From: an uncultured candidatus Porisulfidus sp.
Lineage (GTDB): Bacteria > Pseudomonadota > Gammaproteobacteria > Poriferisulfidales > Poriferisulfidaceae
Reading direction: 5' to 3'
DNA length: 64,000 nt
NCBI GenBank assembly: GCA_965199755.1
Contig: CBDASZ010000002.1
Span: forward strand, 192,001 to 256,000
Each line of letters opens with the position of its first letter. Position 1 is the first letter of the stretch. This document shows, one piece after another, positions 18,409 to 27,875 of the stretch. Under the pieces are notes generated by a model. It was not told where the DNA came from and made no database searches. It saw only the letters and a list, made by a program, of their open reading frames with translations. The position numbers were made by a program, and so were the translations under genes.

Positions 18409-19626
18409 ATGCACGGCATTCGGCACAACCTCGGCCAATTCAGCCACCAGCTGGCGCAAGTCTTTCTGGTCGGCATGACGTTAGGCATGGTGCGCACGGT
18501 GGTGCCCGCGCTGGCAGAGACCGAATTCTCCATTGAGCGCCAATCCTACCTGTTGCTAACCACCTTCGTGGTCGCGTTCGGGTTTATCAAGGGGGCAATG
18601 AATTTTGTAGCCGGTCGCGTCGCGGATCGCTTCGGTCGCAAGCCGGTGCTGCTGGCTGGATGGCTGGTCGCCCTGCCGGCTCCCTTTCTGCTGTTATATG
18701 CCACAAGTTGGAATCAGGTTATTCTGGCCACCGCCCTGCTCGGTATCAATCAGGGACTGTGCTGGTCTGTAACCCAAGCCAGCAAACTGGACCTTGCGCA
18801 TCCGCAGCAGCGCGGATTCGCAGTCGGGCTGGATGAGTTCTCCGGCTACCTCGGTGTCGCCGCGGCCGGGGTGATCACCGGCTATCTGGCCAGTCTGTGG
18901 GAAGTCCGCGACGCCTTGTGGGGCTTTGGTCTGTTCTGCATCCTGATGGCGCTACTGCTGCTGCTGGGCTGGGTACGTGAAACCCTGCCGTGGGCGCATC
19001 ACGAAGAAGTCCAAGAGTCTTCTTCTGACCCCGTCCCCGCAACCACTTGGGAGGCTTTCGTGCGGGTTTCGTGGGGTGACCGACGCATGTTCGCGGTCAG
19101 TCAGGCGGGCCTGGTTGAGAAGTTCGTCGATACGCTGGTGTGGATTTTCTACCCGGCCTATCTGTATGCCAACGGCTTCAGCCTGCTGGACATCGGCTGG
19201 ATTGTCGGTGTGTACGGGACGGTCTGGGGTGCCAGTCAGTTCGCGACCGGGCGTTTGTCAGACCGCGTCGGCCGCCTGCTGCCCTGTGTCAGTGGTATGT
19301 GGCTGTGCGCTGTGGGCGTGCTCGGTGCGCTGTGGAGTTCCGCTTTTGAGGCGTGGATTGTCAGCGCCGCCATCACCGGGTTCGGCATGGCCTTGCTGTA
19401 TCCCAATCTGAGCGCCGCCATTAGTGATCTGGCCACGCCCGTCTGGCGCGGCTCCGCCATTGGCATCTACCGCTTCTGGCGGGATCTGGGCTACGGGATT
19501 GGCGCGCTGGCCTTGGGGGTGCTGGCCAGTATGAGTGGTCAGGTAGAAGCCGGCTTCTACGGTGTTGCGGTCAGTATGTTTGTGTCTGGCGTGGTGCTGG
19601 CGTGGCTAGGGCCACGACGCGCATAA
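18409..19626 (+). CDS. MFS transporter
   Basis: GRVADRFGRK and GRLSDRVGR motif A, GIYRFWRDLG. Confidence 0.9.
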   Translation: MHGIRHNLGQFSHQLAQVFLVGMTLGMVRTVVPALAETEFSIERQSYLLLTTFVVAFGFIKGAMNFVAGRVADRFGRKPVLLAGWLVALPAPFLLLYATSWNQVILATALLGINQGLCWSVTQASKLDLAHPQQRGFAVGLDEFSGYLGVAAAGVITGYLASLWEVRDALWGFGLFCILMALLLLLGWVRETLPWAHHEEVQESSSDPVPATTWEAFVRVSWGDRRMFAVSQAGLVEKFVDTLVWIFYPAYLYANGFSLLDIGWIVGVYGTVWGASQFATGRLSDRVGRLLPCVSGMWLCAVGVLGALWSSAFEAWIVSAAITGFGMALLYPNLSAAISDLATPVWRGSAIGIYRFWRDLGYGIGALALGVLASMSGQVEAGFYGVAVSMFVSGVVLAWLGPRRA

Positions 19627-19635
19627 CGACGCGGA

Positions 19636-21012
19636 TCAGGAATCCGCAACCGCCAGCATTTCTTCGCGGCGCGTGAATTTCTCGCGCGGCTTGCCCTTCG
19701 GCTCACCACGGCTTACTTCTTCCGTATCAATTTTCTGCCAATCCGCAAATTCCACCACGCGCGTCCCGCGTTCGGACAGGATCGATAGCAAAGCCTCCGT
19801 TCCTGCCTTCTCCGTTGGCAATGATCCCAGATCCTCCAGCAAGGAGCCGACCGTCTCCACCGCGCAGGCGCGGTTGGTGCCGATGATGCCGGAAGGACCG
19901 CGCTTGATCCAGCCGGTGGTGTACAGACCGGGCACAACCGCCCCCTCCGGGGTATCAAGCATACGCCCGGCTTCATTCGGGAATACTCCCCAGGAATCAT
20001 GGAACGGCACACCTTCGATCGGTACGCCGCGATACCCTATCGAGCGGAATAGCAGTCCGCATTCCAGCTCTTCCGTTTCCCCGGTACCACTTGCGCGCTG
20101 ACTAAACGGCTCGCCGGTCAAGGCATTGCGCTCCAGCACCACACGCTCAAGTTTGCCGTCACCTAGCAACTGCACCGGACTGCGGCAGAATGTCATCTTG
20201 CAGGTACGCGCTTTGTCGTCGCGCGGTGCCATTTTCTCGAAGATGGCCAGATTCTTGGTTGCCACCAGACTGCGCTTGCGGTCTTCCAGTTCCGCCTGAG
20301 TGGCCTCATTGAGTTCCAGTTCCTGCGGATCAATCACCGTCTGGCAATTCTCAAGTTCCAGAAACTCACGCAATTCCTTGGTGGTGAACTTGGCCTGAGC
20401 CGGTCCGCGTCGCCCGACCACCACGATTGTGCGGATGCGGCTTTCGGCCAGCGCATCCAGCGCATGCTGCGCGATGTCGGTATGTTTCAGCTCGTCGATT
20501 GATTTTGACAGGATGCGCGCGACATCCGCCGCCACATTGCCCTGCCCAATGATCACCGCGGTTTCGTGCGAGAAATCAAACTGCCGATCGCGATAGTCCG
20601 GGTGGCCGTTGTACCAGCCGACGAATTCCGTGGCCGTATGACTGCCCGGCAGATCCTCACCGTCAATCCCCAGACGCCGATCGGTTTCGGCACCGCAGGC
20701 GTAGATGACGGCATGGTAATTCTCGTTTAGCTCTTGCGGGGTGACGTCCTCTCCTACCGCCACATTGCCAAAGAAGCGGAACCCCTCCAGCGCGGCGACT
20801 TTCTTGTAGACTTCAATAGACTGCTTCAGTTTCGGGTGATCCGGTGCCACGCCGCTGCGCACCAGCCCATACGGCGACGGCAGACGCTCGATCAGGTCCA
20901 CGCATACGGCATGCTCTGATTTCAGCAGGGCCTCGGTGGCGTAGAAACCGCTCGGCCCGGCACCCACTACGGCAACCCGCAGGGACGAGGCTTCTGTCCC
21001 CAGTTGACTCAC
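19636..21012 (-). CDS. NADP(H):ferredoxin oxidoreductase, adrenodoxin reductase/FprA family
   Basis: VGAGPSG, PYGLVRSGVAPDH, FVGWYNGHP, GQGNVAADVAR, GWIKRGPSGIIG. Confidence 0.93.
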   Translation of the reverse strand: MSQLGTEASSLRVAVVGAGPSGFYATEALLKSEHAVCVDLIERLPSPYGLVRSGVAPDHPKLKQSIEVYKKVAALEGFRFFGNVAVGEDVTPQELNENYHAVIYACGAETDRRLGIDGEDLPGSHTATEFVGWYNGHPDYRDRQFDFSHETAVIIGQGNVAADVARILSKSIDELKHTDIAQHALDALAESRIRTIVVVGRRGPAQAKFTTKELREFLELENCQTVIDPQELELNEATQAELEDRKRSLVATKNLAIFEKMAPRDDKARTCKMTFCRSPVQLLGDGKLERVVLERNALTGEPFSQRASGTGETEELECGLLFRSIGYRGVPIEGVPFHDSWGVFPNEAGRMLDTPEGAVVPGLYTTGWIKRGPSGIIGTNRACAVETVGSLLEDLGSLPTEKAGTEALLSILSERGTRVVEFADWQKIDTEEVSRGEPKGKPREKFTRREEMLAVADS

Positions 21013-21015
21013 AGG

Positions 21016-21321
21016 TCAGAAACCCAGTTCTGTCTTACGTTCTTCGGCTCCGTCCAGCGGATCTATCTTCTCTTCAATCACCGGCAGATCCGGGGCGCGC
21101 TCGGCGTTGATGTCAACCCACTCCATCTTGTCATCCGGCAGGTCATCAATCTCGTAGATAGCCTCTACCGGGCATTCGGGAATACACGCGCTGCAATCAA
21201 TGCAGACATCTGGATCGATGTACAGCATCTCGTCGTCATAATGAAAGCAGGCCACCGGGCAAACCGCCACACAGTCGGTGAAGCGGCAACCCTTGCAGTT
21301 GTCGGTTACGATCGTGGTCAT
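21016..21321 (-). CDS. fdxA: 7Fe (FdxA-type) ferredoxin
   Basis: CKGCRFTDCVAVCP and CIDCSACIPECP. Confidence 0.92.
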   Translation of the reverse strand: MTTIVTDNCKGCRFTDCVAVCPVACFHYDDEMLYIDPDVCIDCSACIPECPVEAIYEIDDLPDDKMEWVDINAERAPDLPVIEEKIDPLDGAEERKTELGF

Positions 21322-21389
21322 GGAATCTCCTGAATTAAGTCACTGAACGCTTGTGCGCCACAGAAAGGTAGACAAATTATAGACGACAG

Positions 21390-22202
21390 CTACCGCGCGT
21401 CGTAAATCAATAGTTCGCCGCGAGTCTCCTCTATCGCGTCACCGCAGTACCGGCGGTAGTTTCCGCTCATCATCTCGTCACCAATCTCAAAGCCGCTTTG
21501 CCCAAGGTGGCACAAATAAAAGCGCAGGAAAATCGGCCGAAAGCGGCACGAATAACTGAAGCTCGGCAGGATGTCCATCGGCGTAAAAGAAACGATGCTG
21601 CCGCGCACCATGCCGGCACCGGCGCGAATACCCATACCGCCCATCACCACGATCGTGCCGGCGCGCATGTTGACGCCAGCAAAATCACCAGCCTGTCCGC
21701 CCACCGCAATCAGACCGCGGCGCATGGCCGAGCCCAATTCGTTTTTGACATTGCCGTGAATCAGGATCTCTCCGCCCTGCAGGCCGACGGTCTGGCCCCG
21801 GTACGCACTGCCGACCATATGTCCGGCGTCTCCCATCACGGTGATGCGCCCACCGGTCATTTCCGGTCCCACCCAGTCCGAAGCATCACCGGAGACCTGA
21901 ATCAGCCCTCCTGACATACCGGCTCCCAAGTGCATTCCCACTGAGCCATTCACACGCACTTCGCCTTCGCTCATGCCCGCGCCGATATATTTGACGCGAG
22001 ATAAATCACCTTCCAGATGCAACTGCAACTGTCCGTTGCCAGACACCTTGAAAAAGTCGCCCACCATCGCCTTCTCGTTGCCGTGCATGACTTCTAGATG
22101 CTCCACACCGGCTTGCGACAGCCCGGCGATACGTGCCGGTGACAAACATTCCGCTTCCAGTGGCACTTCCGGGCGGGTGATCAACTTCAATGCCGTGTGC
22201 AT
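21390..22202 (-). CDS. fwdC: formylmethanofuran dehydrogenase subunit C (FwdC/FhcC)
   Basis: GxxMxxG beta-helix repeats, GSAYRG, MRRG. Confidence 0.93.
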   Translation of the reverse strand: MHTALKLITRPEVPLEAECLSPARIAGLSQAGVEHLEVMHGNEKAMVGDFFKVSGNGQLQLHLEGDLSRVKYIGAGMSEGEVRVNGSVGMHLGAGMSGGLIQVSGDASDWVGPEMTGGRITVMGDAGHMVGSAYRGQTVGLQGGEILIHGNVKNELGSAMRRGLIAVGGQAGDFAGVNMRAGTIVVMGGMGIRAGAGMVRGSIVSFTPMDILPSFSYSCRFRPIFLRFYLCHLGQSGFEIGDEMMSGNYRRYCGDAIEETRGELLIYDAR

Positions 22203-22206
22203 AAGC

Positions 22207-23100
22207 CTACGCCCCTTTCAGCAGTTCGTGGAGCCCGAACTTGTACTGCCCAAGCGTGCCGCCGTAGTTGCCGGCACTGATGTAATCCGCGCCCTTGGTG
22301 GCCGCGGCGTGGATGCCGCGCTGCATCGCGTCCCGCAGCGCTTCTTCGTTCAGACCATTGACCACCACTTCGTAGACGGCGGTGATGCCCTCCGGCAGCG
22401 CGCTATCCTCCACGCGACCGCGCAAGGTTGGACAGTAGGCATGGTTGGTTGATGCAATCAGGCTCTTGTAGCGTGACCCCACCTTGCTGCCTGAACCCAC
22501 TACTCCATGCGGAAATGGCAGAAACACGCCCGCCACCTCACGCATCGCCTCAACCGCGCCGACCGCCGCGCGTAGCGCATTGCGGTGGCTGGTGCTCATC
22601 AGCAACAGGTTGCCGCCGCCAATCGTGGGCTGCACCCCGAACACATCGTCAACCAGAAACTCTCCGCCCATAATCGGAATGCGCCACATTCGCCGATCGC
22701 CAATCACCTTGGAGATCTGATGGCCATCGCCAAAAAATCGTAAGCGTTGTCCGACCGGTACCTGATTGTCACTCGCAAGCCCGTTGTAACAGGCCGTGGT
22801 GGGACAGGTCATCACGCTTTGTCCGATCCGCTCAACCAGACGCGCTGACATATCCTTTTCGCTCATGGTGAACAACAGTACGCTAACACCGGGGCGCAGA
22901 TCCGGCGTGTCCGTATCGGGCAGTTCGCATTCCACCGCCGCCTCGCACTTGCAGCGAATGACGGAGGTGGCAAATCCGGTGATCGATTGCGCCGCCGCCC
23001 GCGCCCAGTTCTTGGTCTCGGCGGTGATGATGACGCGCGAACCCCACATGCCGAAGGCTTCGGCAAAGGTATCGACGACTTCAGTCTTGCCAATATGCAT
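22207..23100 (-). CDS. ftr: formylmethanofuran:H4MPT formyltransferase (Ftr/FhcD)
   Basis: DTFAEAF, GFATSVI, RIGQSVMTCPTTA, FFGDG, SGSKVGS, SAGNYGG. Confidence 0.95.
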   Translation of the reverse strand: MHIGKTEVVDTFAEAFGMWGSRVIITAETKNWARAAAQSITGFATSVIRCKCEAAVECELPDTDTPDLRPGVSVLLFTMSEKDMSARLVERIGQSVMTCPTTACYNGLASDNQVPVGQRLRFFGDGHQISKVIGDRRMWRIPIMGGEFLVDDVFGVQPTIGGGNLLLMSTSHRNALRAAVGAVEAMREVAGVFLPFPHGVVGSGSKVGSRYKSLIASTNHAYCPTLRGRVEDSALPEGITAVYEVVVNGLNEEALRDAMQRGIHAAATKGADYISAGNYGGTLGQYKFGLHELLKGA

Positions 23101-24818
23101 CAGGACTTCTTCTTGGTGGTCTTGCGCGCCGGTTTCTTGCGCGCGGCGGGTTTGCGGGTCGCCTGCTGCGGTTGATGTGGCGGAATGACTTCGTCATGTT
23201 CGTGCAGGTAAGAGTCCTGCACCGCGTAATTGTTGAAACGAATGGAGTAGTAGGAATCGAAGAACGGACGCAACTGCTCCTCAATACTGTCATCGTATTG
23301 CGGCTGCGCGTACAGCAACTTGCCGGTGTGATCCGCCACGAACTCGTGATCCTCAATGATCACGCGGCCGTCCTTGATGACATAGCGCGGCGCGTCGAAC
23401 ATGCGCTCGCGATCCTCATCATCGGTATACAACGTGATGTCGGCATCCGCGCCCACTCCGAGATGCCCTTTGCGCTTAAGGCCCAGCGCGCGGGCCGGTG
23501 CGGCGCGCGTGATGATGGCAATCTCGTACAGGCTGTATTCACGTTCCAGTTGCGGCAGCAGCGTCTGGCTGATCGCTTTCTGGTTGACCGCACCCATCAT
23601 TTCCTTGCGGAAGCCATAATCCATGAGCAGGCGGATCAGACGCGGATAGGTGCGGAATGACGCGCCGTTGGGGTGATCAGTCGAGAACATGACCCGCCAC
23701 GGGTCTTGCGACAGCAGGAACAACTCCAGACCAATCGCCCACTGCATGGTGTGCGTGAAATTATCTTCCTGATAGGAAAACGGCATGATGCCGCAGCCGC
23801 TTTCGCACTCGGTGTCGGCGTTCACCCACTTGGTGTCCTTGTTGCGCAGCATCCACGCAAGCGGCGCATCCGCGGTCATCGCGGTGGCCCTGCCGAACAG
23901 CACACAGCCGATATCGGTGGTGATGTTTTCATGCGTGTTGATGTAGTCGATAATCGCCTCGGAGCCGGTTTTGACGCGCGAACCCGGCTCACCACCGTAA
24001 CTGTGGAACTGGATATGCGCCATGTGCACCCGACGGCCTTCGGCCGATTTCATGGTGTCGATCGTGGTCGCGATATTGCCGCTGTGTCCGAGATTGTTAC
24101 AGTGAATGTGCGTCGGATGCGGCAGATTCAATTCGTCCACTGCCTCAATGAATGCGGAGGTGATTTGCAGAGGCGTGAGTTCAAACGGATCAATGGTCTG
24201 GTTAACATTGGTGACATTTTCGTTGCGCTTGCCTTTCCAGAGTTCATCGCTGCCTGCATTCACCAGTTTGACGGCTGTGGCACGGGTTGCATTGACCCAC
24301 CAGCCGATCGCATCCTTGAAATCCTGCTTGCGGCCTTCCTTTAGCAGGTCGTACAGGAACATGTTGTTACCCAGCAGGATATAGAAGCCCTTGTCAATCA
24401 CGGGCGTGTCGTGAAATTCCTCGATCACGTGCCGCGCCGCCATCGGCGGCACCGCGGCATCAAAGGCAGTGGTGTAACCCAGCATCGCATAGCGGTAGCC
24501 GGTGGCGAAGGTCGAAGGCGTGATGCCGCCGACGCCTGAGCGCGTCACCTCAGTGCCCGGATGCACGTCAAGGCGATGATCTTCAGGCTGCAGTTTGCGC
24601 GACAAATTGACCTTGGGCCCGGCAATATGGCAGTGGATGTCAACCCCGCCGGGCATCACCACCATGCCATGCGCGTTGATCGAGCGCGCCTGCTTCGAGA
24701 CCTTGTCCGTGATACGCCCGTCGCGTACCAGTACTTCGCGTACTTCGCCGTCCACGCCGTTGGCCGGGTCGTACACCCGCCCACCGTGAATGCGCAGTTC
24801 CGTGCCGTTGCCCGCCAC
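23100..24818 (-). CDS. fwdA: formylmethanofuran dehydrogenase subunit A (amidohydrolase fold)
   Basis: PGGVDIHCHIAG, TGYRYA, KLVNAG, HIHCNNLG, HIQFHSY, TDHPNG. Confidence 0.95.
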   Translation of the reverse strand: MAGNGTELRIHGGRVYDPANGVDGEVREVLVRDGRITDKVSKQARSINAHGMVVMPGGVDIHCHIAGPKVNLSRKLQPEDHRLDVHPGTEVTRSGVGGITPSTFATGYRYAMLGYTTAFDAAVPPMAARHVIEEFHDTPVIDKGFYILLGNNMFLYDLLKEGRKQDFKDAIGWWVNATRATAVKLVNAGSDELWKGKRNENVTNVNQTIDPFELTPLQITSAFIEAVDELNLPHPTHIHCNNLGHSGNIATTIDTMKSAEGRRVHMAHIQFHSYGGEPGSRVKTGSEAIIDYINTHENITTDIGCVLFGRATAMTADAPLAWMLRNKDTKWVNADTECESGCGIMPFSYQEDNFTHTMQWAIGLELFLLSQDPWRVMFSTDHPNGASFRTYPRLIRLLMDYGFRKEMMGAVNQKAISQTLLPQLEREYSLYEIAIITRAAPARALGLKRKGHLGVGADADITLYTDDEDRERMFDAPRYVIKDGRVIIEDHEFVADHTGKLLYAQPQYDDSIEEQLRPFFDSYYSIRFNNYAVQDSYLHEHDEVIPPHQPQQATRKPAARKKPARKTTKKKS

Positions 24819-24841
24819 TTGTGATATCCCGGTGTCTGGTT

Positions 24842-26203
24842 TCAGGCGGCGACCGCAAGAGAGCCGTTCGCGCGCAGCGCACGAAGCCGATCGTAAATGC
24901 CTTGCAACACGGTCTCATCGCTCGGAAACGGTGAGTCGAAAGCCGGACGCAGCGTAATCGGCACATCGTCCATGCGATATACCGTGCCACCCGTGTTGAT
25001 CCCGTAAGTCGCCACCATAAACGCCACCTGGGCCTGACGGCTGGTGTAGGTGGGCTTGGCGTCCAGCGTGATCAGCGGTATCTTCTTCAAGTGCTCAATC
25101 GCGCGCTTGGGGAAGTTCGAAGCCGGATCGGTGGCAATCATCATGGCCGCATCCGCATCGCCGCGCGCCAGCAGATCCACCGTGGTAAACTCACCCGGAT
25201 TGAAGCGAGGATAGCCGCGATGGAAGTTGACGCCAAAGGGGTAGCCGGTTTGCCAGGACACCACATTGTCGGCACCGGTCACATTGCCGTGACCGCGCAC
25301 CGGCTTGGCGACAAAATGGGTATGCTCATTGAGATCATTGGCTAATGCCAGCAAGGCACCTGAATTGAAATGCCGCCCGCGCGTCATGGTCAGTCCCATG
25401 CCGAAAAACAACACGCCATAGTTGCAATTCTTCATGCGCTCCACCAGCGCCTCGACGGTCTCGCGCGACACACCGGTTATCTCCTCTATATCTCCTGATA
25501 CGCGCCGCCCGCGCACCAGCGCGCGCAAAATCCACAGTAACTCGAAGTCGCGTCCGGGACGCACCTGGATGAATTCATCGGCGACCGGCGCACTGGGGGT
25601 CTTGCGGACGTCCACCAGCACCACATGGCGGTCTTTCTTGCCGTTCGGGATATAGCGACCTTTCGGTGTCACCGCGTAGCGTGTGAAGTGTCTTGGGTGG
25701 GACTCGGCGGGATTGCCGCCCCAGTAAATCACCAAGTCGGCGCGATTCTTGATCTCGCCGAGGGTCGCGGTGCTCTCGCCGACGCCCTGGAAAGCGATGC
25801 CCGAGGGCCCATGGCAGACCGACGTGGTAGTGTCGATATTGCCGCGTACCAGATCATTGATGGCGACGGCGACGCGCTGCGCCTCGCATGGCGAATCACT
25901 CAGCCCGTAGGTGATCGGAAAGCGCGCCTCATGCAAAATGCGCGCCGCATCGTCCATGGCATCCTCAAGCGGGGCCTCGCGGCCGTTGATCATGGCCATC
26001 GGATGATCTTCGATACCGTGATTCAGAAACCAGGCACGGCCCAGAACGCACGCATTCTTGGCCTTGGTGATGCGCATCTCATCCAGATCCACGGTCAAAT
26101 CCATGTCGTCGCACACGCAACCGCAGAAGGTGCAGGTGGCATCCTCAACAATGCGAATGTTGGGCGGAGTCTCTTTGTCCGGGGCCTCTTTGGTCTCGCT
26201 CAT
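24842..26203 (-). CDS. fwdB: formylmethanofuran dehydrogenase subunit B (molybdo/tungstopterin subunit)
   Basis: CTFCGCVCDD...C 4Fe-4S motif, SVCHGPS, GEIKNRAD, WGGNPAESHPRH, RGHGNV, WQTGYPF, YRMDDVP. Confidence 0.93.
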   Translation of the reverse strand: MSETKEAPDKETPPNIRIVEDATCTFCGCVCDDMDLTVDLDEMRITKAKNACVLGRAWFLNHGIEDHPMAMINGREAPLEDAMDDAARILHEARFPITYGLSDSPCEAQRVAVAINDLVRGNIDTTTSVCHGPSGIAFQGVGESTATLGEIKNRADLVIYWGGNPAESHPRHFTRYAVTPKGRYIPNGKKDRHVVLVDVRKTPSAPVADEFIQVRPGRDFELLWILRALVRGRRVSGDIEEITGVSRETVEALVERMKNCNYGVLFFGMGLTMTRGRHFNSGALLALANDLNEHTHFVAKPVRGHGNVTGADNVVSWQTGYPFGVNFHRGYPRFNPGEFTTVDLLARGDADAAMMIATDPASNFPKRAIEHLKKIPLITLDAKPTYTSRQAQVAFMVATYGINTGGTVYRMDDVPITLRPAFDSPFPSDETVLQGIYDRLRALRANGSLAVAA

Positions 26204-26246
26204 GGTCTTTCCTCTGATAATGCGCGTACGGGATTGGGGAATAGGT

Positions 26247-26603
26247 TCAGGAAGAGGCACCGAGCACTTCAAGTTCGACCACCATATGCTTGGATAAGGG
26301 CATCCCACTACCCGCGGTGTCACTTTCCATTAACTCGCTCGACGATGGGCCGTACGGAATAAACGCCATGCCGTCCGGTAAATCCTCGTCCTTGCGCGGC
26401 TTGCCGCACACCACCTCGACCGTTCCGGTCGGGCAGGACAGGCGCACCTTGTCACCGACGCTCAGATCGAGCCGGGCCATCAGGCTCTCGTTCAACTCCA
26501 GCGTTGAGGTGACGGTCTGATACTCCTCCTTGAGCTTGCCTCCATTGAGGGAGGTGCCCTGCTTGTTCGACCGTCCTGGAATCAGGATCAACTGTTCGGG
26601 CAT
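26247..26603 (-). CDS. fwdD: FwdD-like molybdopterin dinucleotide-binding subunit
   Basis: LIPGRSNKQG, GMAFIPYGP, TAGSGMPLSK; lies directly upstream of fwdB. Confidence 0.88.
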   Translation of the reverse strand: MPEQLILIPGRSNKQGTSLNGGKLKEEYQTVTSTLELNESLMARLDLSVGDKVRLSCPTGTVEVVCGKPRKDEDLPDGMAFIPYGPSSSELMESDTAGSGMPLSKHMVVELEVLGASS

Positions 26604-26721
26604 GGCCACATCGTGCGGCTTCTGTAGGAAGCACGGATTATACAGGATACCCCGCAAGCGCTATAAGGATTGCAGGGTGTGGTGCGGGTGGGGATTTTCG
26701 ACTTGAACGGTGTCGGCAGCA

Positions 26722-26844
26722 CTGAAAGAATTGACCACTCTACCACTGCAGATTCAGATTGATCCGCGCACCACTACCATCGCTGTGGCTGGTAAACGCT
26801 TCCACACCCAGGTAGCGCAGAGGCTAGGCCGCCGGAAAGGCTAG
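26722..26844 (+). mobile_element. possible degenerate IscB (IS200/IS605) fragment
   Basis: LKELTTLPLQIQIDPRTTTIAV...VAQRLGRRKG resembles the IscB RuvC-I region (PLxLxIDPGSxTTGxA) and the start of the Arg-rich bridge helix; short and startless. Confidence 0.3.
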
Positions 26845-26865
26845 AAAGAGTGTCACGGGGGCTTG

Positions 26866-26879
26866 CCCCCCCCCCCCCC
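26866..26879. repeat. C14 homopolymer tract
   Basis: 14 consecutive C, preceded by GGGGG-CTTG. Confidence 0.9.
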
Positions 26880-26981
26880 TAATATGGATTGGCATTGCGC
26901 TCAGGGGGCTCATGCGTTGCAATTCCAACTGAATGATGTTTACGGCAAGTCCAGGTTTTCATATAGCATAAGACAGGCGCT

Positions 26982-27875
26982 TCAGTCCAGAGGCAGCAGA
27001 CGTTTCGGGCGCAAAAGACCTTCGGCATCTGCTTCGCCCAAACCCAGAAAATCCCCCTGCTCCGTATACAACCGAACTGGCCCGGACCGCCCAGAATCCA
27101 CCACCACGCGCCCTTCCTTTAACGCGCACCCCTCCTGCATCGTGCAGTGATATTGCGGCCAGTCGGGCAAGCCGTCTTCATCCGGCAGCAAGCGAGCCAT
27201 CCGCGCAGCCTCAGAAAGTGCCTCCAGATCATCCAGACGCATGGCCTGAGCCACATCGAATGGCCCCACCCGCAGGCGCCGCAAACTTCGAACATAGGCA
27301 CCACAGCCCAACGCCTCACCCAGATCCGCTCCCAGTGTCCGCACATACAATCCCTTGCTGGCGTCGACTTCAAGCTCCCATTCATCGCCGCGCGCCGTAT
27401 ACAATTCCAGACGCCGCACTTCCACTGTGCGCGGCTGACGCGCCACCACTTCGCCGCGCCGCGCCAAACGATACAGCCGCGTGCCGTCAATCTGCACCGC
27501 CGAATACATCGGCGGAATCTGCTGAATGGAGCCACGAAACCGCGCAAGCACAGCCTCAATTTCCGCAGCGCTCAACTCCGGCACCGGATTCGGTGAGGCT
27601 TGCTCCACCTCTCCTTCGCTGTCCTGCGTTGCGGTGCGCACACCCAAACACAACGTAAAACGATATGACTTCTGTGCGTCCAGCAAATAACCGCACCAGC
27701 GCGTGGTCGCCCCCACCGCGATCACCAGCAAACCCTCCGCCAAAGGATCCAGCGTGCCGGTATGCCCTACACGTTGCACTGAAAACAAACGCTTGACGCG
27801 CGCGACCACGCGCGCGGAACTCGGCCCGGATTCCTTGTCGAGCAGCAACCAGCCAGACGGTGTCTTCGCGGTCAC
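26982..27875 (-). CDS. truB: tRNA pseudouridine 55 synthase
   Basis: LLDK, GHTGTLDP, QIPPMYSA, SKGLYVRTL. Confidence 0.96.
   Translation of the reverse strand: MTAKTPSGWLLLDKESGPSSARVVARVKRLFSVQRVGHTGTLDPLAEGLLVIAVGATTRWCGYLLDAQKSYRFTLCLGVRTATQDSEGEVEQASPNPVPELSAAEIEAVLARFRGSIQQIPPMYSAVQIDGTRLYRLARRGEVVARQPRTVEVRRLELYTARGDEWELEVDASKGLYVRTLGADLGEALGCGAYVRSLRRLRVGPFDVAQAMRLDDLEALSEAARMARLLPDEDGLPDWPQYHCTMQEGCALKEGRVVVDSGRSGPVRLYTEQGDFLGLGEADAEGLLRPKRLLPLD

What the first reader, a model, noticed from the sequence alone, without database searches (positions are those of the whole stretch)
19636..26603. Apparently redox-active formylmethanofuran dehydrogenase wired to a ferredoxin and NADP(H) reductase in a gammaproteobacterium
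Seen: co-oriented fwdD-fwdB-fwdA-ftr-fwdC-fdxA-fprA with gaps of 0-70 nt. Established: the Methylorubrum Fhc complex has no D subunit, its FhcB has lost the pterin cofactor and Fe-S cluster, and it only hydrolyses formyl units to formate. Archaeal Fwd/Fmd is redox-active and uses FwdF/FwdG (poly)ferredoxins. Inference: this locus is a hybrid with Fhc gene order, an intact dehydrogenase and a different electron module (7Fe ferredoxin plus adrenodoxin-reductase-type enzyme). It could oxidise formyl-H4MPT to CO2 and yield NADPH in one complex, or run in reverse. FwdD-containing clusters are known from some bacteria, so the coupling to FdxA/FprA is the most novel part.
Basis: partly seen in the sequence, partly recalled or inferred. 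Interest (0 to 1): 0.82.

Follow-up and report, generated by a model that had tools for sequence, protein, structure and literature searches.

The report
Bacterial formylmethanofuran dehydrogenase wired to NADP
A small sponge-associated gammaproteobacterium carries a seven-gene operon that looks like an intact, redox-active formylmethanofuran dehydrogenase built on the bacterial Fhc plan and joined to its own ferredoxin and NADPH-ferredoxin reductase, a combination that is widespread in uncultured bacteria but that I did not find described in print.

Summary
Window 19636-26603 (minus strand) holds fwdD-fwdB-fwdA-ftr-fwdC-fdxA-fprA, with gaps of -1 to 68 nt. An invariant TATAAT box lies 34 nt upstream of fwdD.

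FwdB resembles archaeal redox-active FwdB (E 2e-113), not Methylorubrum FhcB (6e-12). It keeps the 4Fe-4S cysteine motif, the Cys-His of the pterin site and the RGH arginine. All 47 full-length orthologs fetched keep the cysteine and RGH motifs; Cys-His matched a regular expression in 46 and was seen by alignment in the 47th.

The gene order is that of Fhc, and the FwdC C-terminus aligns only with FhcC. So this looks like a hybrid: an Fhc-like scaffold with a live dehydrogenase.

fdxA-fprA travels with this cluster:
- Both genes were adjacent in 39 of 48 related loci, downstream or upstream.
- FprA orthologs were found in 20 of 21 class genomes with Fwd-type FwdB, 4 of 32 with Fhc-type only, and 0 of 347 with neither.
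- One relative lacks both (a co-loss).

The genome has fae, mtdB, mch, Moco and methanofuran biosynthesis genes, but no Fhc-type complex.

Best reading: formyl-H4MPT is oxidised to CO2, with electrons passing through FdxA and FprA to NADP+. Ten full-text searches found no description. I rate it a new variant of a known kind.

The parts
26637..26642 (-). Candidate -10 promoter box (TATAAT) of the operon, 34 nt upstream of the fwdD ATG
   Evidence: GTATAAT is invariant in 8 of 8 aligned upstream regions (window plus 7 same-genus-level loci). The rest of these regions is otherwise unalignable. Position read. The generic promoter scan did not list it. No transcription start was mapped.
26247..26603 (-). 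fwdD: molybdopterin-dinucleotide-binding cap subunit (118 aa)
   Evidence: Pfam PF01568, 32.8 bits. NCBIfam FwdD model 58.6 bits, below its cut-off of 175. The PDB hits reported (E<=0.001) are all four archaeal FwdD chains: 2ki8 1.5e-11, 5t5i_D 2.4e-10. Present in 48 of 48 related loci.
24842..26203 (-). fwdB: pterin and 4Fe-4S subunit (453 aa), dehydrogenase-type
   Evidence: TIGR03129, 498.5 bits. PDB: 8rja_B 2.2e-113, 5t5i_B 1.6e-108, against Fhc 6s6y_B 6e-12. The motifs CTFCGCVC and RGH are in 47 of 47 orthologs. TSVCHGP matched the regular expression in 46 of 47. L038 missed the regular expression but shows Cys-His in the alignment.
23100..24818 (-). fwdA: amidohydrolase subunit (572 aa; formyl-methanofuran hydrolysis or synthesis)
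   Evidence: TIGR03121, 684.7 bits. PDB bits: 8rja_A 472, 5t5i_A 445, Fhc 6s6y_A 366. The Lys/Arg-rich C-terminal tail is specific to this genus.
22207..23100 (-). ftr (fhcD): formylmethanofuran:H4MPT formyltransferase (297 aa)
   Evidence: Pfam FTR and FTR_C. TIGR03119, 395.5 bits. PDB bits: 1ftr 286, Fhc 6s6y_D 276. It sits between fwdA and fwdC, as in fhcBADC.
21390..22202 (-). fwdC: beta-helix scaffold subunit (270 aa) with an FhcC-like C-terminus
   Evidence: TIGR03122, 252.1 bits. Alignments to the archaeal FwdC chains end between query residues 204 and 222 (the two shown residue by residue: 217 and 222). The alignment to FhcC 6s6y_C runs to residue 266 and includes SG..RRY.GD...GEL.
21016..21321 (-). 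fdxA: 7Fe-type ferredoxin (101 aa)
   Evidence: PDB: Azotobacter vinelandii ferredoxin I chains, about 1e-27. Nine Cys are invariant in 30 of 30 aligned sequences, with 87% mean column identity. There is a GGAG 7 nt before the ATG and a 68-nt gap from fwdC. That gap has no significant hairpin, z 0.38.
19636..21012 (-). fprA: FAD-dependent NADPH-ferredoxin reductase of the FprA/adrenodoxin-reductase type (458 aa)
   Evidence: PDB: 1lqt 1e-114, 2c7g 1.3e-113, 1cjc 5.7e-110, aligned over residues 13-455. Its GTG start lies 3 nt after the fdxA stop. It is the only FprA-type gene in the genome found by tblastn; the other hits are 28% identical partial matches.

Best explanation
The operon most likely encodes a bacterial, redox-active formylmethanofuran (methylofuran) dehydrogenase built on the Fhc plan.

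Proposed mechanism:
1. Ftr moves the formyl group from formyl-H4MPT to the furan cofactor.
2. FwdA hydrolyses it to formate inside the complex.
3. FwdB/FwdD oxidise that formate to CO2 at a Mo- or W-bis-pterin centre.
4. The two electrons leave through the FwdB 4Fe-4S cluster to the dedicated 7Fe ferredoxin FdxA.
5. FprA passes them on to NADP+.

The net reaction is formyl-H4MPT + NADP+ + H2O -> CO2 + H4MPT + NADPH. In this genome it replaces the usual two-step route of Fhc releasing formate followed by a separate formate dehydrogenase.

What is shown: gene content, order, motif conservation, and the linkage and co-occurrence of fdxA-fprA with Fwd-type clusters.

What is inferred: catalytic activity, which metal is used, FdxA as the direct acceptor, the direction of electron flow, NADP+ as the final acceptor, and physical association of Ftr through the FhcC-like tail of FwdC.
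For: 1. FwdB is dehydrogenase-type.
- PDB: 8rja_B 2.2e-113 and 5t5i_B 1.6e-108, against Fhc 6s6y_B 6e-12.
- The 4-Cys motif, Cys-His and RGH are present. PMC6926001 (passages) names Cys118, His119, Arg288, the N-terminal 4Fe-4S domain and FwdD as exactly what Fhc has lost.
- CTFCGCVC and RGH are in 47 of 47 orthologs, and TSVCHGP in 46 of 47 by regular expression.
- All 13 clade rows in the tree read CCCC|CH|R.
- Fhc-type paralogs in the same contigs lack Cys-His.

2. FwdD, FwdA, Ftr and FwdC are all present.

3. Linkage of fdxA-fprA in the 48 loci.
- 33 have fdxA-fprA within 300 nt downstream of fwdC.
- 3 have it downstream after an insertion.
- 3 have it upstream of fwdD.
- 1 shows only fprA upstream.
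- 1 shows fdxA and then the contig ends.
- 1 lacks both.
- 5 are too short to tell.
- 1 holds only a partial FwdB.
- Two of the too-short cases were followed up. One has ftr-fwdC-fdxA-fprA on another contig. The other has fprA beside an Fhc-type B gene; fdxA was not seen in that short locus.

4. Co-occurrence in 400 scored genomes of the class.
- Fwd-type FwdB (>=68% identity) is in 21.
- An FprA ortholog (>=57% identity) is in 20 of those 21. The miss is a 75%-complete genome.
- FprA orthologs are in 4 of 32 genomes with only an Fhc-type B subunit, and in 0 of 347 with neither.
- FprA and FwdB lie within 7 kb on one contig in 15 genomes, or 16 counting a contig-end fragment.
- Four of the 21 genomes (G308, G141, G296, G039) are unpublished. 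Without them the figure is 16 of 17.

5. In 21 relatives, FwdB and FprA are in the same 20 and adjacent. G418 (99% complete) lacks both. The cluster is kept in genomes of 0.9-1.2 Mb.

6. FprA matches NADPH-ferredoxin reductase FprA and adrenodoxin reductase over its full length, and GRRGP is conserved in the alignment. FdxA has the 7Fe cysteine pattern.

7. Pathway context in the window's own genome.
- Present: fae, mch, two Mpt_N dehydrogenases, beta-RFAP synthase, MptN.
- Present: MfnB, MoaA, MoaE and MobA.
- Absent by tblastn: a second FwdA or any Fhc-type complex.

8. Precedent. PDB 8RJA, the best structural relative of FwdA and FwdB, is an oxidative Fwd in which the polyferredoxin is replaced by an F420-reductase module (PMC11493965, passages).

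9. Expression hint. An RNA-library contig covers 20886-21506 (fwdC end, all of fdxA, fprA start). Another covers 24500-25142 (the fwdB-fwdA junction).

10. Thermodynamics (recalled values, no call). Formyl-MFR/CO2 is about -530 mV and NADP+ is -320 mV, so oxidation is strongly downhill.
Against: - No biochemical data exist for any member. Every relative named in the record titles is a metagenome-assembled genome.
- The genomes of L040 and L038 carry the Fwd-type cluster but have no adjacent fdxA-fprA. They have only a 48-50% FprA homolog elsewhere, with no fdxA beside it.
- In G204 and G381, fdxA-fprA (or fprA alone) sits next to an Fhc-type cluster with no Fwd-type cluster found. In many genomes the pair lies at the junction of a Fwd-type and an Fhc-type cluster, so adjacency alone does not say which one it serves.
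- The genome also has an NAD-type formate dehydrogenase, an FdsA-like alpha subunit with a fused FdsG/B-like partner. A route through free formate is therefore not excluded in principle.
- The FdxA and FwdD scores are below the NCBIfam cut-offs.
- Related genomes are not independent, so the co-occurrence counts overstate the number of independent events.
- The RNA evidence is assembled contigs only. No silent-stretch control was laid on purpose, and DNA carry-over is not excluded.
Confidence: 0.6

Rival explanations
1. The Fwd complex is redox-active, but FdxA-FprA is a general NADPH:ferredoxin system. It would supply or drain reduced ferredoxin for other enzymes and be merely co-located or co-regulated with the C1 genes. 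The true acceptor of Fwd would then be something else.
For: FprA and 7Fe ferredoxins are general-purpose redox partners in other bacteria (recalled). FprA is the only FprA-type gene in the genome, so it may have other duties. G204 and G381 keep the pair, or fprA alone, without a Fwd-type cluster. The genomes of L040 and L038 have the cluster without the pair.
Against: FprA orthologs were found in 0 of 347 class genomes lacking any Fwd/Fhc B subunit, but in 20 of 21 with Fwd-type FwdB. A housekeeping system should not track one pathway this closely. Linkage survives rearrangement, both downstream and upstream. One relative has lost both together. A second FdxA-like gene (44% identity) elsewhere could serve general needs.
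Confidence: 0.15
2. The complex works as Fhc does, as a formyltransferase/hydrolase releasing formate. The conserved pterin-site residues and FwdD would be structural leftovers, and the separate NAD-type formate dehydrogenase would finish the oxidation.
For: The gene order and the FwdC C-terminus are Fhc-like. An FdsA-type formate dehydrogenase is encoded. [quoted passage not shown]
Against: The Cys motif and RGH are kept in 47 of 47 orthologs at 72-90% identity, and Cys-His in all 47 (46 by regular expression, L038 by alignment). True Fhc-type paralogs in the same contigs have lost Cys-His. FwdD is retained in 48 of 48 loci. Moco and MGD biosynthesis is kept in a 1.39-Mb genome.
Confidence: 0.08
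3. The system runs in reverse. NADPH reduces FdxA through FprA, and Fwd fixes CO2 to formyl-methanofuran for C1 assimilation.
For: Archaeal Fwd works in this direction in methanogens (PMC6926001). The host lineage is described in record titles as a sulfur oxidiser (TsSOB), so autotrophy is plausible.
Against: Recalled potentials: CO2/formyl-MFR is about -530 mV against NADPH at -320 mV. That leaves roughly +40 kJ/mol uphill with no bifurcating partner or energy-coupling gene in the operon. The genome encodes fae and the oxidative H4MPT route.
Confidence: 0.04

Closest known systems
Archaeal tungsten/molybdenum formylmethanofuran dehydrogenase FwdABCDFG / FmdABCD (e.g. Methanothermobacter wolfeii, PDB 5T5I)
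   Same: A, B, C and D subunits are all present. FwdB has the 4Fe-4S cysteines, Cys-His and RGH. FwdB and FwdA score higher against archaeal chains than against Fhc chains.
   Different: There is no FwdF or FwdG polyferredoxin gene. ftr is embedded in the operon. The FwdC C-terminus does not align with archaeal FwdC. The electron module is a 7Fe ferredoxin plus an FprA-type reductase. The host is a gammaproteobacterium, presumably aerobic or microaerobic.
F420-reducing Fwd of Candidatus Ethanoperedens thermophilum (PDB 8RJA; PMC11493965)
   Same: It is the best PDB match of FwdA and FwdB. It is an oxidative Fwd whose polyferredoxin is replaced by a reductase module, which delivers electrons to a two-electron hydride carrier of about -340 mV.
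   Different: There the module (FwdI) is an FrhB-like F420 reductase, FwdG is kept, and the host is an anaerobic archaeon. Here the module is FdxA plus an FAD-dependent NADP(H) reductase, and F420 is not implied.
Formyltransferase/hydrolase complex FhcABCD of Methylorubrum extorquens (PDB 6S6Y; PMC6926001)
   Same: The gene order B-A-D(ftr)-C matches. The FwdC C-terminus aligns with the FhcC region that differs from archaeal FwdC. Both sit at the end of the bacterial H4MPT formaldehyde-oxidation pathway.
   Different: FhcB lacks the 4Fe-4S domain, Cys118, His119 and Arg288, and Fhc has no D subunit and releases formate. The window's FwdB has all of these motifs plus FwdD and matches FhcB only at 6e-12.
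Mycobacterium tuberculosis FprA with 7Fe ferredoxin FdxA; bovine adrenodoxin reductase
   Same: Full-length homology, E 1e-114 and 6e-110. Pairing with a 7Fe ferredoxin is a known couple in mycobacteria (recalled, not from a call).
   Different: The known systems run from NADPH to ferredoxin to P450s or other consumers. Here the proposed flow is the opposite, from ferredoxin to NADP+, and the pair is genetically tied to a C1 dehydrogenase.

Membership tests
Redox-active formylmethanofuran dehydrogenase (Fwd/Fmd) | B subunit with an N-terminal 4Fe-4S cysteine motif | tested here: met
   CTFCGCVC plus the fourth Cys aligned to archaeal FwdB. Present in 47 of 47 orthologs.
Redox-active formylmethanofuran dehydrogenase (Fwd/Fmd) | Catalytic Cys (or Sec)-His and the active-site Arg (Cys118, His119, Arg288 of M. 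wolfeii FwdB, as listed in PMC6926001) | tested here: met
   SVCHGPS and RGH align with 5t5i_B and 8rja_B. 46 of 47 orthologs match by regular expression and the 47th shows them by alignment.
Redox-active formylmethanofuran dehydrogenase (Fwd/Fmd) | Separate D subunit (the fourth, cap domain of the pterin site) | tested here: met
   Pfam PF01568 above its cut-off. The PDB hits reported (E<=0.001) are all archaeal FwdD chains. The NCBIfam FwdD model gives 58.6 bits, below its cut-off of 175.
Redox-active formylmethanofuran dehydrogenase (Fwd/Fmd) | A (amidohydrolase) and C subunits | tested here: met
   TIGR03121 at 684.7 bits and TIGR03122 at 252.1 bits, both above their cut-offs.
Redox-active formylmethanofuran dehydrogenase (Fwd/Fmd) | Polyferredoxin partners FwdF/FwdG (or FmdF) | tested here: not met
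   No such ORF lies in the operon, and all gaps are 68 nt or less. FdxA matched FwdF and polyferredoxin chains only weakly, at 1e-9 to 1e-11.
Redox-active formylmethanofuran dehydrogenase (Fwd/Fmd) | Mo- or W-bis-pterin guanine dinucleotide bound; formyl-MFR oxidised to CO2 | not testable with these tools
   Only indirect evidence is available. MoaA, MoaE and MobA are present. A TupA/TupB-like transporter scores below its cut-offs, and no ModA was found.
Formyltransferase/hydrolase complex (Fhc) | B subunit without pterin-site residues and without the 4Fe-4S domain; no D subunit | tested here: not met
   The window's FwdB has all the motifs and a D gene precedes it. Its match to FhcB 6s6y_B is only 6e-12.
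Formyltransferase/hydrolase complex (Fhc) | Formyltransferase gene inside the cluster (order B-A-D-C) | tested here: met
   ftr lies between fwdA and fwdC. The fhcBADC order is given in PMC6926001.
Formyltransferase/hydrolase complex (Fhc) | FhcC-type C-terminal segment (helix-loop-helix; the platform for the formyltransferase) | tested here: inconclusive
   Residues 213-266 align with FhcC 210-262, while alignments to the archaeal FwdC chains end between query residues 204 and 222. The fold could not be checked because structure prediction was off.
FprA / adrenodoxin-reductase-type NADPH:ferredoxin reductase | Full-length homology, including the FAD and NADP domains | tested here: met
   1lqt 1e-114 over residues 13-455, and 1cjc 5.7e-110. 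GRRGP is conserved in the alignment. Its role in binding the 2'-phosphate is recalled, not tested.
7Fe (3Fe-4S plus 4Fe-4S) ferredoxin, Azotobacter FdI / FdxA type | Cysteine pattern Cx2Cx4Cx3CP ... Cx2Cx2Cx3CP with a C-terminal extension | tested here: met
   Aligned to Azotobacter vinelandii FdI chains at about 1e-27. Nine Cys are invariant in 30 of 30 sequences. DUF3470 is matched. The NCBIfam FdxA_Protbact model gives 110.8 bits, below its cut-off of 135. Cluster content itself cannot be tested here.

The most novel reading that the evidence does not exclude
This clade could be the living intermediate between archaeal Fwd and bacterial Fhc. It would be an oxygen-tolerant supercomplex of Ftr, FwdABCD, FdxA and FprA, acting as a formyl-H4MPT:NADP+ oxidoreductase. 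It would burn formaldehyde-derived C1 units straight to CO2 without free formate and yield NADPH. It is common in uncultured Gammaproteobacteria, including a USC-gamma MAG, in Gemmatimonadota and in sponge symbionts. On this reading, the textbook end of bacterial H4MPT-linked formaldehyde oxidation (Fhc, then formate, then formate dehydrogenase) would be only one of two routes.
Probability: 0.4. Interest if true: 0.85.

Novelty: new variant of a known kind. Interest (0 to 1): 0.74.

Why it matters
Bacterial methylotrophy textbooks end the H4MPT pathway with Fhc, a dehydrogenase relative that has lost its redox function. [quoted passage not shown] A 2016 survey states that fwdD is not present in Proteobacteria (PMC5020050, passage).

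Here an apparently live dehydrogenase with FwdD is found in Proteobacteria and other phyla, tied to a dedicated ferredoxin/NADP(H) reductase pair.

If the proposed reaction holds, it has four consequences:
- It defines a new physiological enzyme activity, formyl-methanofuran:NADP+ oxidoreductase.
- It explains how very small symbiont genomes (0.9-2 Mb) finish formaldehyde oxidation without Fhc.
More than 5000 proteins matched at E<=1e-30 among the 8000 candidates scored.
- It gives a concrete intermediate for the Fwd-to-Fhc evolutionary path proposed from the Fhc structure.

It also offers a possibly oxygen-tolerant CO2/formyl-level redox catalyst for engineering.

Tried and rejected
Rfam scan of 19000-27400 at E<=1 gave no match, so no Moco or other riboswitch was found.

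The generic promoter/terminator scan gave nothing above shuffles and no terminator on the minus strand in the intergenic gaps. The fwdC-fdxA spacer has no significant fold, z 0.38.

PQQ methanol dehydrogenase model TIGR03075 gave only weak sub-cut-off hits, so the source of formaldehyde stays open.

The ModA model gave no hit. The Tup-like transporter is below its cut-offs, so Mo versus W is undecided.

I checked whether stop codons inside FwdB matches were selenocysteine codons. They were not. The one in L049 is a TAG upstream of the start. The TGA in L069 (G361) is at residue 237, away from the active site, in a cluster that looks degraded.

FwdB tree (FastTree, 142 rows: window, 12 Fwd-type and 8 Fhc-type sequences from loci, and 121 of the 150 representatives that were 400 aa or longer; 29 shorter ones were dropped). 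The window clade is a tight, fully supported group. Deeper branches are weak and the representatives carry no taxonomy. Only 2 of the 10 clusters looked up had names, and only one of those gave an organism (Pirellulales). So I could infer no donor lineage and no Fwd-to-Fhc branching order. The motif read-out for divergent representatives depends on an uncertain alignment, and I do not rely on it.

RNA runs: parts of the stretch without cover in X6 and X7 (for example 26258-27000 and 19400-20415) are not evidence of anything. Only contigs were available.

Literature: all ten searches available were used. None returned a paper that describes a bacterial Fwd joined to FdxA/FprA or to NADP. The 'FprA' hits are methanogen papers judged from titles and abstracts only; I recall that FprA there names an F420H2 oxidase. 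Supplements were closed, and subscription papers (for example Chistoserdova 2013, cited in PMC5020050) were not seen and may bear on the claim.

I tried it once more after twenty other calls, as its message allowed, and it was then switched off. I did not try it again.

Full report
**Observation.** The gaps are 43, 23, -1, 4, 68 and 3 nt. Pfam and NCBIfam confirm every assignment. FwdB, FwdA, Ftr and FwdC score above their curated cut-offs. FwdD and FdxA are recognised but score below the NCBIfam cut-offs. FprA matches M. tuberculosis NADPH-ferredoxin reductase FprA (1lqt, 1e-114) and adrenodoxin reductase (1cjc, 6e-110) over its whole length. FdxA matches Azotobacter vinelandii 7Fe ferredoxin I at about 1e-27.

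The operon sits between nusA-infB-rbfA-truB and a convergent MFS transporter gene followed by dnaX-recR-purC. Its G+C content is ordinary for the window. In an alignment of eight upstream regions that are otherwise unalignable, a GTATAAT box 34 nt before the fwdD start is invariant. I take it as the operon's -10 element (window 26637-26642). No Rfam family, no terminator in the internal gaps, and no significant hairpin between fwdC and fdxA was found.

**Host.** The window is part of a 1.39-Mb genome of 4 contigs, 98.9% complete, with 58% G+C. The nearest FwdB relatives, at 86-90% identity, carry record titles of Candidatus Porisulfidus or Gammaproteobacteria MAGs, several from sponge metagenomes. 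That name is not in the taxonomy copy.

**Is the dehydrogenase intact?** By sequence, yes. FwdB matches archaeal redox-active FwdB chains at 2e-113 (8rja_B) and 1.6e-108 (5t5i_B), but Methylorubrum FhcB (6s6y_B) only at 6e-12. The printed alignments show three features conserved: the N-terminal CxxCxxxC...C motif, SVCHGPS (Cys-His) and RGH.

The Fhc structure paper lists what FhcB has lost (PMC6926001, passages read). It names Cys118 (replaced by Ser62), His119, Arg288, the N-terminal 4Fe-4S domain and the FwdD cap. The window has all of them.

I examined 47 full-length orthologs from related loci:
- CTFCGCVC and RGH were present in 47 of 47.
- TSVCHGP matched by regular expression in 46.
- The remaining one (L038) shows Cys-His in the tree alignment.

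The Fhc-type paralogs that lie beside several of these clusters have lost Cys-His. This is the contrast expected if selection keeps the pterin site working in one paralog only.

**A hybrid of Fwd and Fhc.** The order D-B-A-ftr-C is fhcBADC plus D. FwdA and FwdB score higher against archaeal chains than against Fhc chains: FwdA gives 472 and 445 bits against 366. Ftr scores about equally against both, 286 against 276 bits. FwdD has only archaeal structural relatives.

FwdC is the telling case. Its alignments to archaeal FwdC chains end between query residues 204 and 222; the two shown residue by residue end at 217 and 222. Its alignment to FhcC runs to residue 266 and includes a shared SG..RRY.GD...GEL segment. 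The Fhc paper says the C-terminal part of FhcC differs from FwdC, forming a helix-loop-helix instead of a beta-hairpin, and that FhcC is a binding platform in the complex. I infer that Ftr is held on this complex as in Fhc. The fold could not be checked because the structure tools were off.

**Is fdxA-fprA really part of it?** Four lines of evidence say yes.

1. Synteny. I searched the 48 loci found with FwdB using the window's proteins.
   - 33 have fdxA-fprA within 300 nt downstream of fwdC.
   - 3 have it downstream after an insertion of 0.9-2.3 kb. The ORFs there looked to me like small toxin-antitoxin or mobile genes, but I did not family-test them.
   - 3 have it upstream of fwdD (MAGs labelled Gemmatimonadales and Betaproteobacteria).
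   - 1 shows only fprA upstream.
   - 1 shows fdxA before the contig ends.
   - 1 (L040) lacks both despite long flanks.
   - 5 are too short to tell.
   - 1 has only a partial FwdB.
   
   For two of the too-short cases I looked elsewhere in the genome. One has ftr-fwdC-fdxA-fprA on another contig. The other has fprA beside an Fhc-type B gene; fdxA was not seen in that short locus. Some MAG labels (Mycobacterium, Enterobacteriaceae, Anaerolineae) sit oddly with 74-77% identical clusters and may reflect binning.

2. Co-occurrence across 400 scored genomes drawn evenly from the class.
   - 21 have a Fwd-type FwdB (>=68% identity).
   - 20 of those 21 have an FprA ortholog (>=57% identity). The exception is 75% complete.
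   - 32 further genomes have only an Fhc-type B subunit (25-34% identity), and 4 of them have the FprA ortholog.
   - None of the 347 genomes with neither has it. Five genomes had more distant FprA homologs (44-48% identity): three among those 347, and two (G118, G295) among the 32 with only weak B-subunit matches.
   - FprA and FwdB lie within 7 kb on one contig in 15 genomes, or 16 with a contig-end fragment. In four fragmented assemblies they are on different contigs.
   - Four of the 21 are flagged unpublished (G308, G141, G296, G039). Without them the figure is 16 of 17.

3. Relatives. In 21 relatives, FwdB and FprA are found in the same 20 and are adjacent. The one 99%-complete genome without FwdB (G418) also lacks FprA. 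The cluster is kept even in genomes of 0.9-1.2 Mb, although FprA is split in G419 and carries an insertion in G414.

4. Conservation of FdxA. FdxA is the most conserved protein of the set, with 87% mean column identity, a constant length of 101 aa in all 30 aligned sequences, and nine invariant cysteines. fprA starts 3 nt after the fdxA stop.

Related genomes are not independent, so these counts overstate the number of events. Even so, three different arrangements plus one co-loss argue for a functional tie.

**Evidence against, in full.**
- L040 and L038, which are close to each other in the tree, have the cluster embedded in H4MPT genes with no linked module. Their genomes hold only a 48-50% FprA homolog, with no fdxA beside it.
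- In G204, fdxA-fprA lies next to an Fhc-type cluster with no Fwd-type cluster found. In G381 only fprA does.
- In many genomes with both clusters, the pair lies between them.
- Those Fhc-type B subunits still carry the N-terminal cysteine motif. A link to Fhc-type complexes therefore cannot be fully excluded.

**Pathway context in the window's own genome.**
- Present: fae, mch, two Mpt_N-type methylene-H4MPT dehydrogenases, beta-RFAP synthase, MptN-like and ATP-grasp genes, and a CitG-like gene.
- Present: MfnB for the furan cofactor, and MoaA, MoaE and MobA for the pterin cofactor.
- No second FwdA and no Fhc-type complex were found by tblastn. The Fwd complex is therefore the only encoded outlet of formyl-H4MPT.
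- A separate NAD-type formate dehydrogenase exists, an FdsA-like alpha subunit with a fused FdsG/B-like partner.
- No PQQ methanol dehydrogenase reached its cut-off.
- A TupA/TupB-like transporter scores below its cut-offs and ModA was not found. The metal is therefore open.

**Expression.** Two metatranscriptomic runs hold parts of the stretch as assembled contigs. One contig covers 20886-21506, which is the end of fwdC, all of fdxA and the start of fprA. Another covers 24500-25142, across the fwdB-fwdA junction. Contigs show neither strand nor a single transcript, and DNA carry-over is not excluded. This is a hint only.

**Mechanism.** The steps I propose are these:
1. Ftr transfers the formyl group from H4MPT to the furan cofactor.
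2. FwdA hydrolyses it.
3. The formate is oxidised at the FwdB/FwdD pterin centre.
4. Electrons pass through the FwdB cluster to FdxA.
5. FprA passes them from FdxA to NADP+.

With recalled potentials (formyl-MFR/CO2 about -530 mV, NADP+ -320 mV), this is downhill by roughly 40 kJ/mol. The reverse reaction with NADPH alone is therefore not credible.

A direct precedent exists. The best PDB relative of FwdA and FwdB, 8RJA, is the Fwd of an ethane-oxidising archaeon. In it the polyferredoxin is replaced by an F420-reductase subunit, so that CO2 formation reduces F420 (PMC11493965, passages).

**Known or new?**
- PMC5020050 states that fwdD is kept in Archaea, Synergistetes, Firmicutes and NC10 but is not present in Planctomycetes or Proteobacteria (passage).
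- PMC10100899 counts 149 bacterial FwdB hits and ascribes them to transfer from Archaea. The passages I read say nothing about partners.
- Public annotation simply calls these proteins 'formylmethanofuran dehydrogenase subunit B' or, once, 'Fhc subunit B' of a USC-gamma MAG.
- More than 5000 proteins reach E<=1e-30 among the 8000 candidates scored, so the family is abundant.
- Ten full-text searches found no description of the FdxA/FprA coupling. Supplements and subscription papers were not visible.

**Verdict.** All the parts belong to known families. The new elements are the combination (live dehydrogenase, Fhc scaffold and an NADP-linked ferredoxin module) and its breadth. I rate it a new variant of a known kind with interest 0.74. 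My confidence in the full mechanism is 0.6. It is about 0.85 for a redox-competent Fwd and about 0.7 for FdxA-FprA as its electron chain.

**Limits.** The tree lacks taxon labels and a root. No activity, metal content or physical complex is shown.

Noticed in passing
G000:C1:142514-144930 (L062:6515-8931, minus strand); outside the window: A second formyltransferase paralog, Ftr2 (40% identical to the operon's Ftr; 305 bits to NF002554), lies between a 5-formyl-tetrahydrofolate cyclo-ligase gene and folD. The trio is conserved in 11 of 11 same-genus loci, and Ftr2 is in 21 of 21 relatives, including genomes of 0.9-1.2 Mb. It might bridge folate-bound and methanofuran/H4MPT-bound C1 units. This is untested.
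   Followed up: partly
L039:10921-12159, L043:520-1758, L049:16806-18101, L066:12374-13651, L067:7562-8812: Fhc-type B subunits that lie beside Fwd-type clusters keep an N-terminal CPFCxLxCDD...C motif but have lost the Cys-His of the pterin site. This differs from Methylorubrum FhcB, which lacks the whole 4Fe-4S domain (PMC6926001). Some Fhc complexes may therefore still bind an Fe-S cluster.
   Followed up: partly
window 26866-26879 (minus strand): A run of 14 G lies in the truB-fwdD intergenic region, about 260 nt upstream of fwdD. A DNA contig of another run covers it without differences. Its meaning is unknown.
   Followed up: no
window 23100-23190 (FwdA residues ~545-572): FwdA ends in a Lys/Arg-rich tail. 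The tail is shorter in same-genus relatives and absent from the other orthologs. It could contact a polyglutamate cofactor tail, but this is speculation.
   Followed up: partly
G000:C2:354292-356418 (L077:112-2238): A TupB-like permease, an ABC ATPase and a TupA-like binding protein are encoded here. TupA scores 222 bits (cut-off 400) and TupB 150 bits (cut-off 320). No ModA was found in the genome. This may hint at tungstate uptake but is undecided.
   Followed up: partly
L011:6014-6940, L016:14714-16136, L017:14722-17060: Insertions of 0.9-2.3 kb lie between fwdC and fdxA in three Porisulfidus-level loci. By eye the ORFs resemble small toxin-antitoxin or mobile genes. They were not family-tested.
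   Followed up: no
G419:C13:1951-3382 and G414:C1:171865-173589: In two of the smallest related genomes, FprA matches in two pieces. In G419 the pieces are adjacent and overlap by a few bases. In G414 they lie within one 577-aa open frame about 340 nt apart, which suggests an insertion. This could be decay, a variant form or an assembly error.
   Followed up: no
L037, L046, L038, L040 (record titles): Clusters 74-77% identical to the window's carry MAG labels as distant as Mycobacterium, Enterobacteriaceae and Anaerolineae. The likely causes are binning or labelling problems, or lateral transfer.
   Followed up: no
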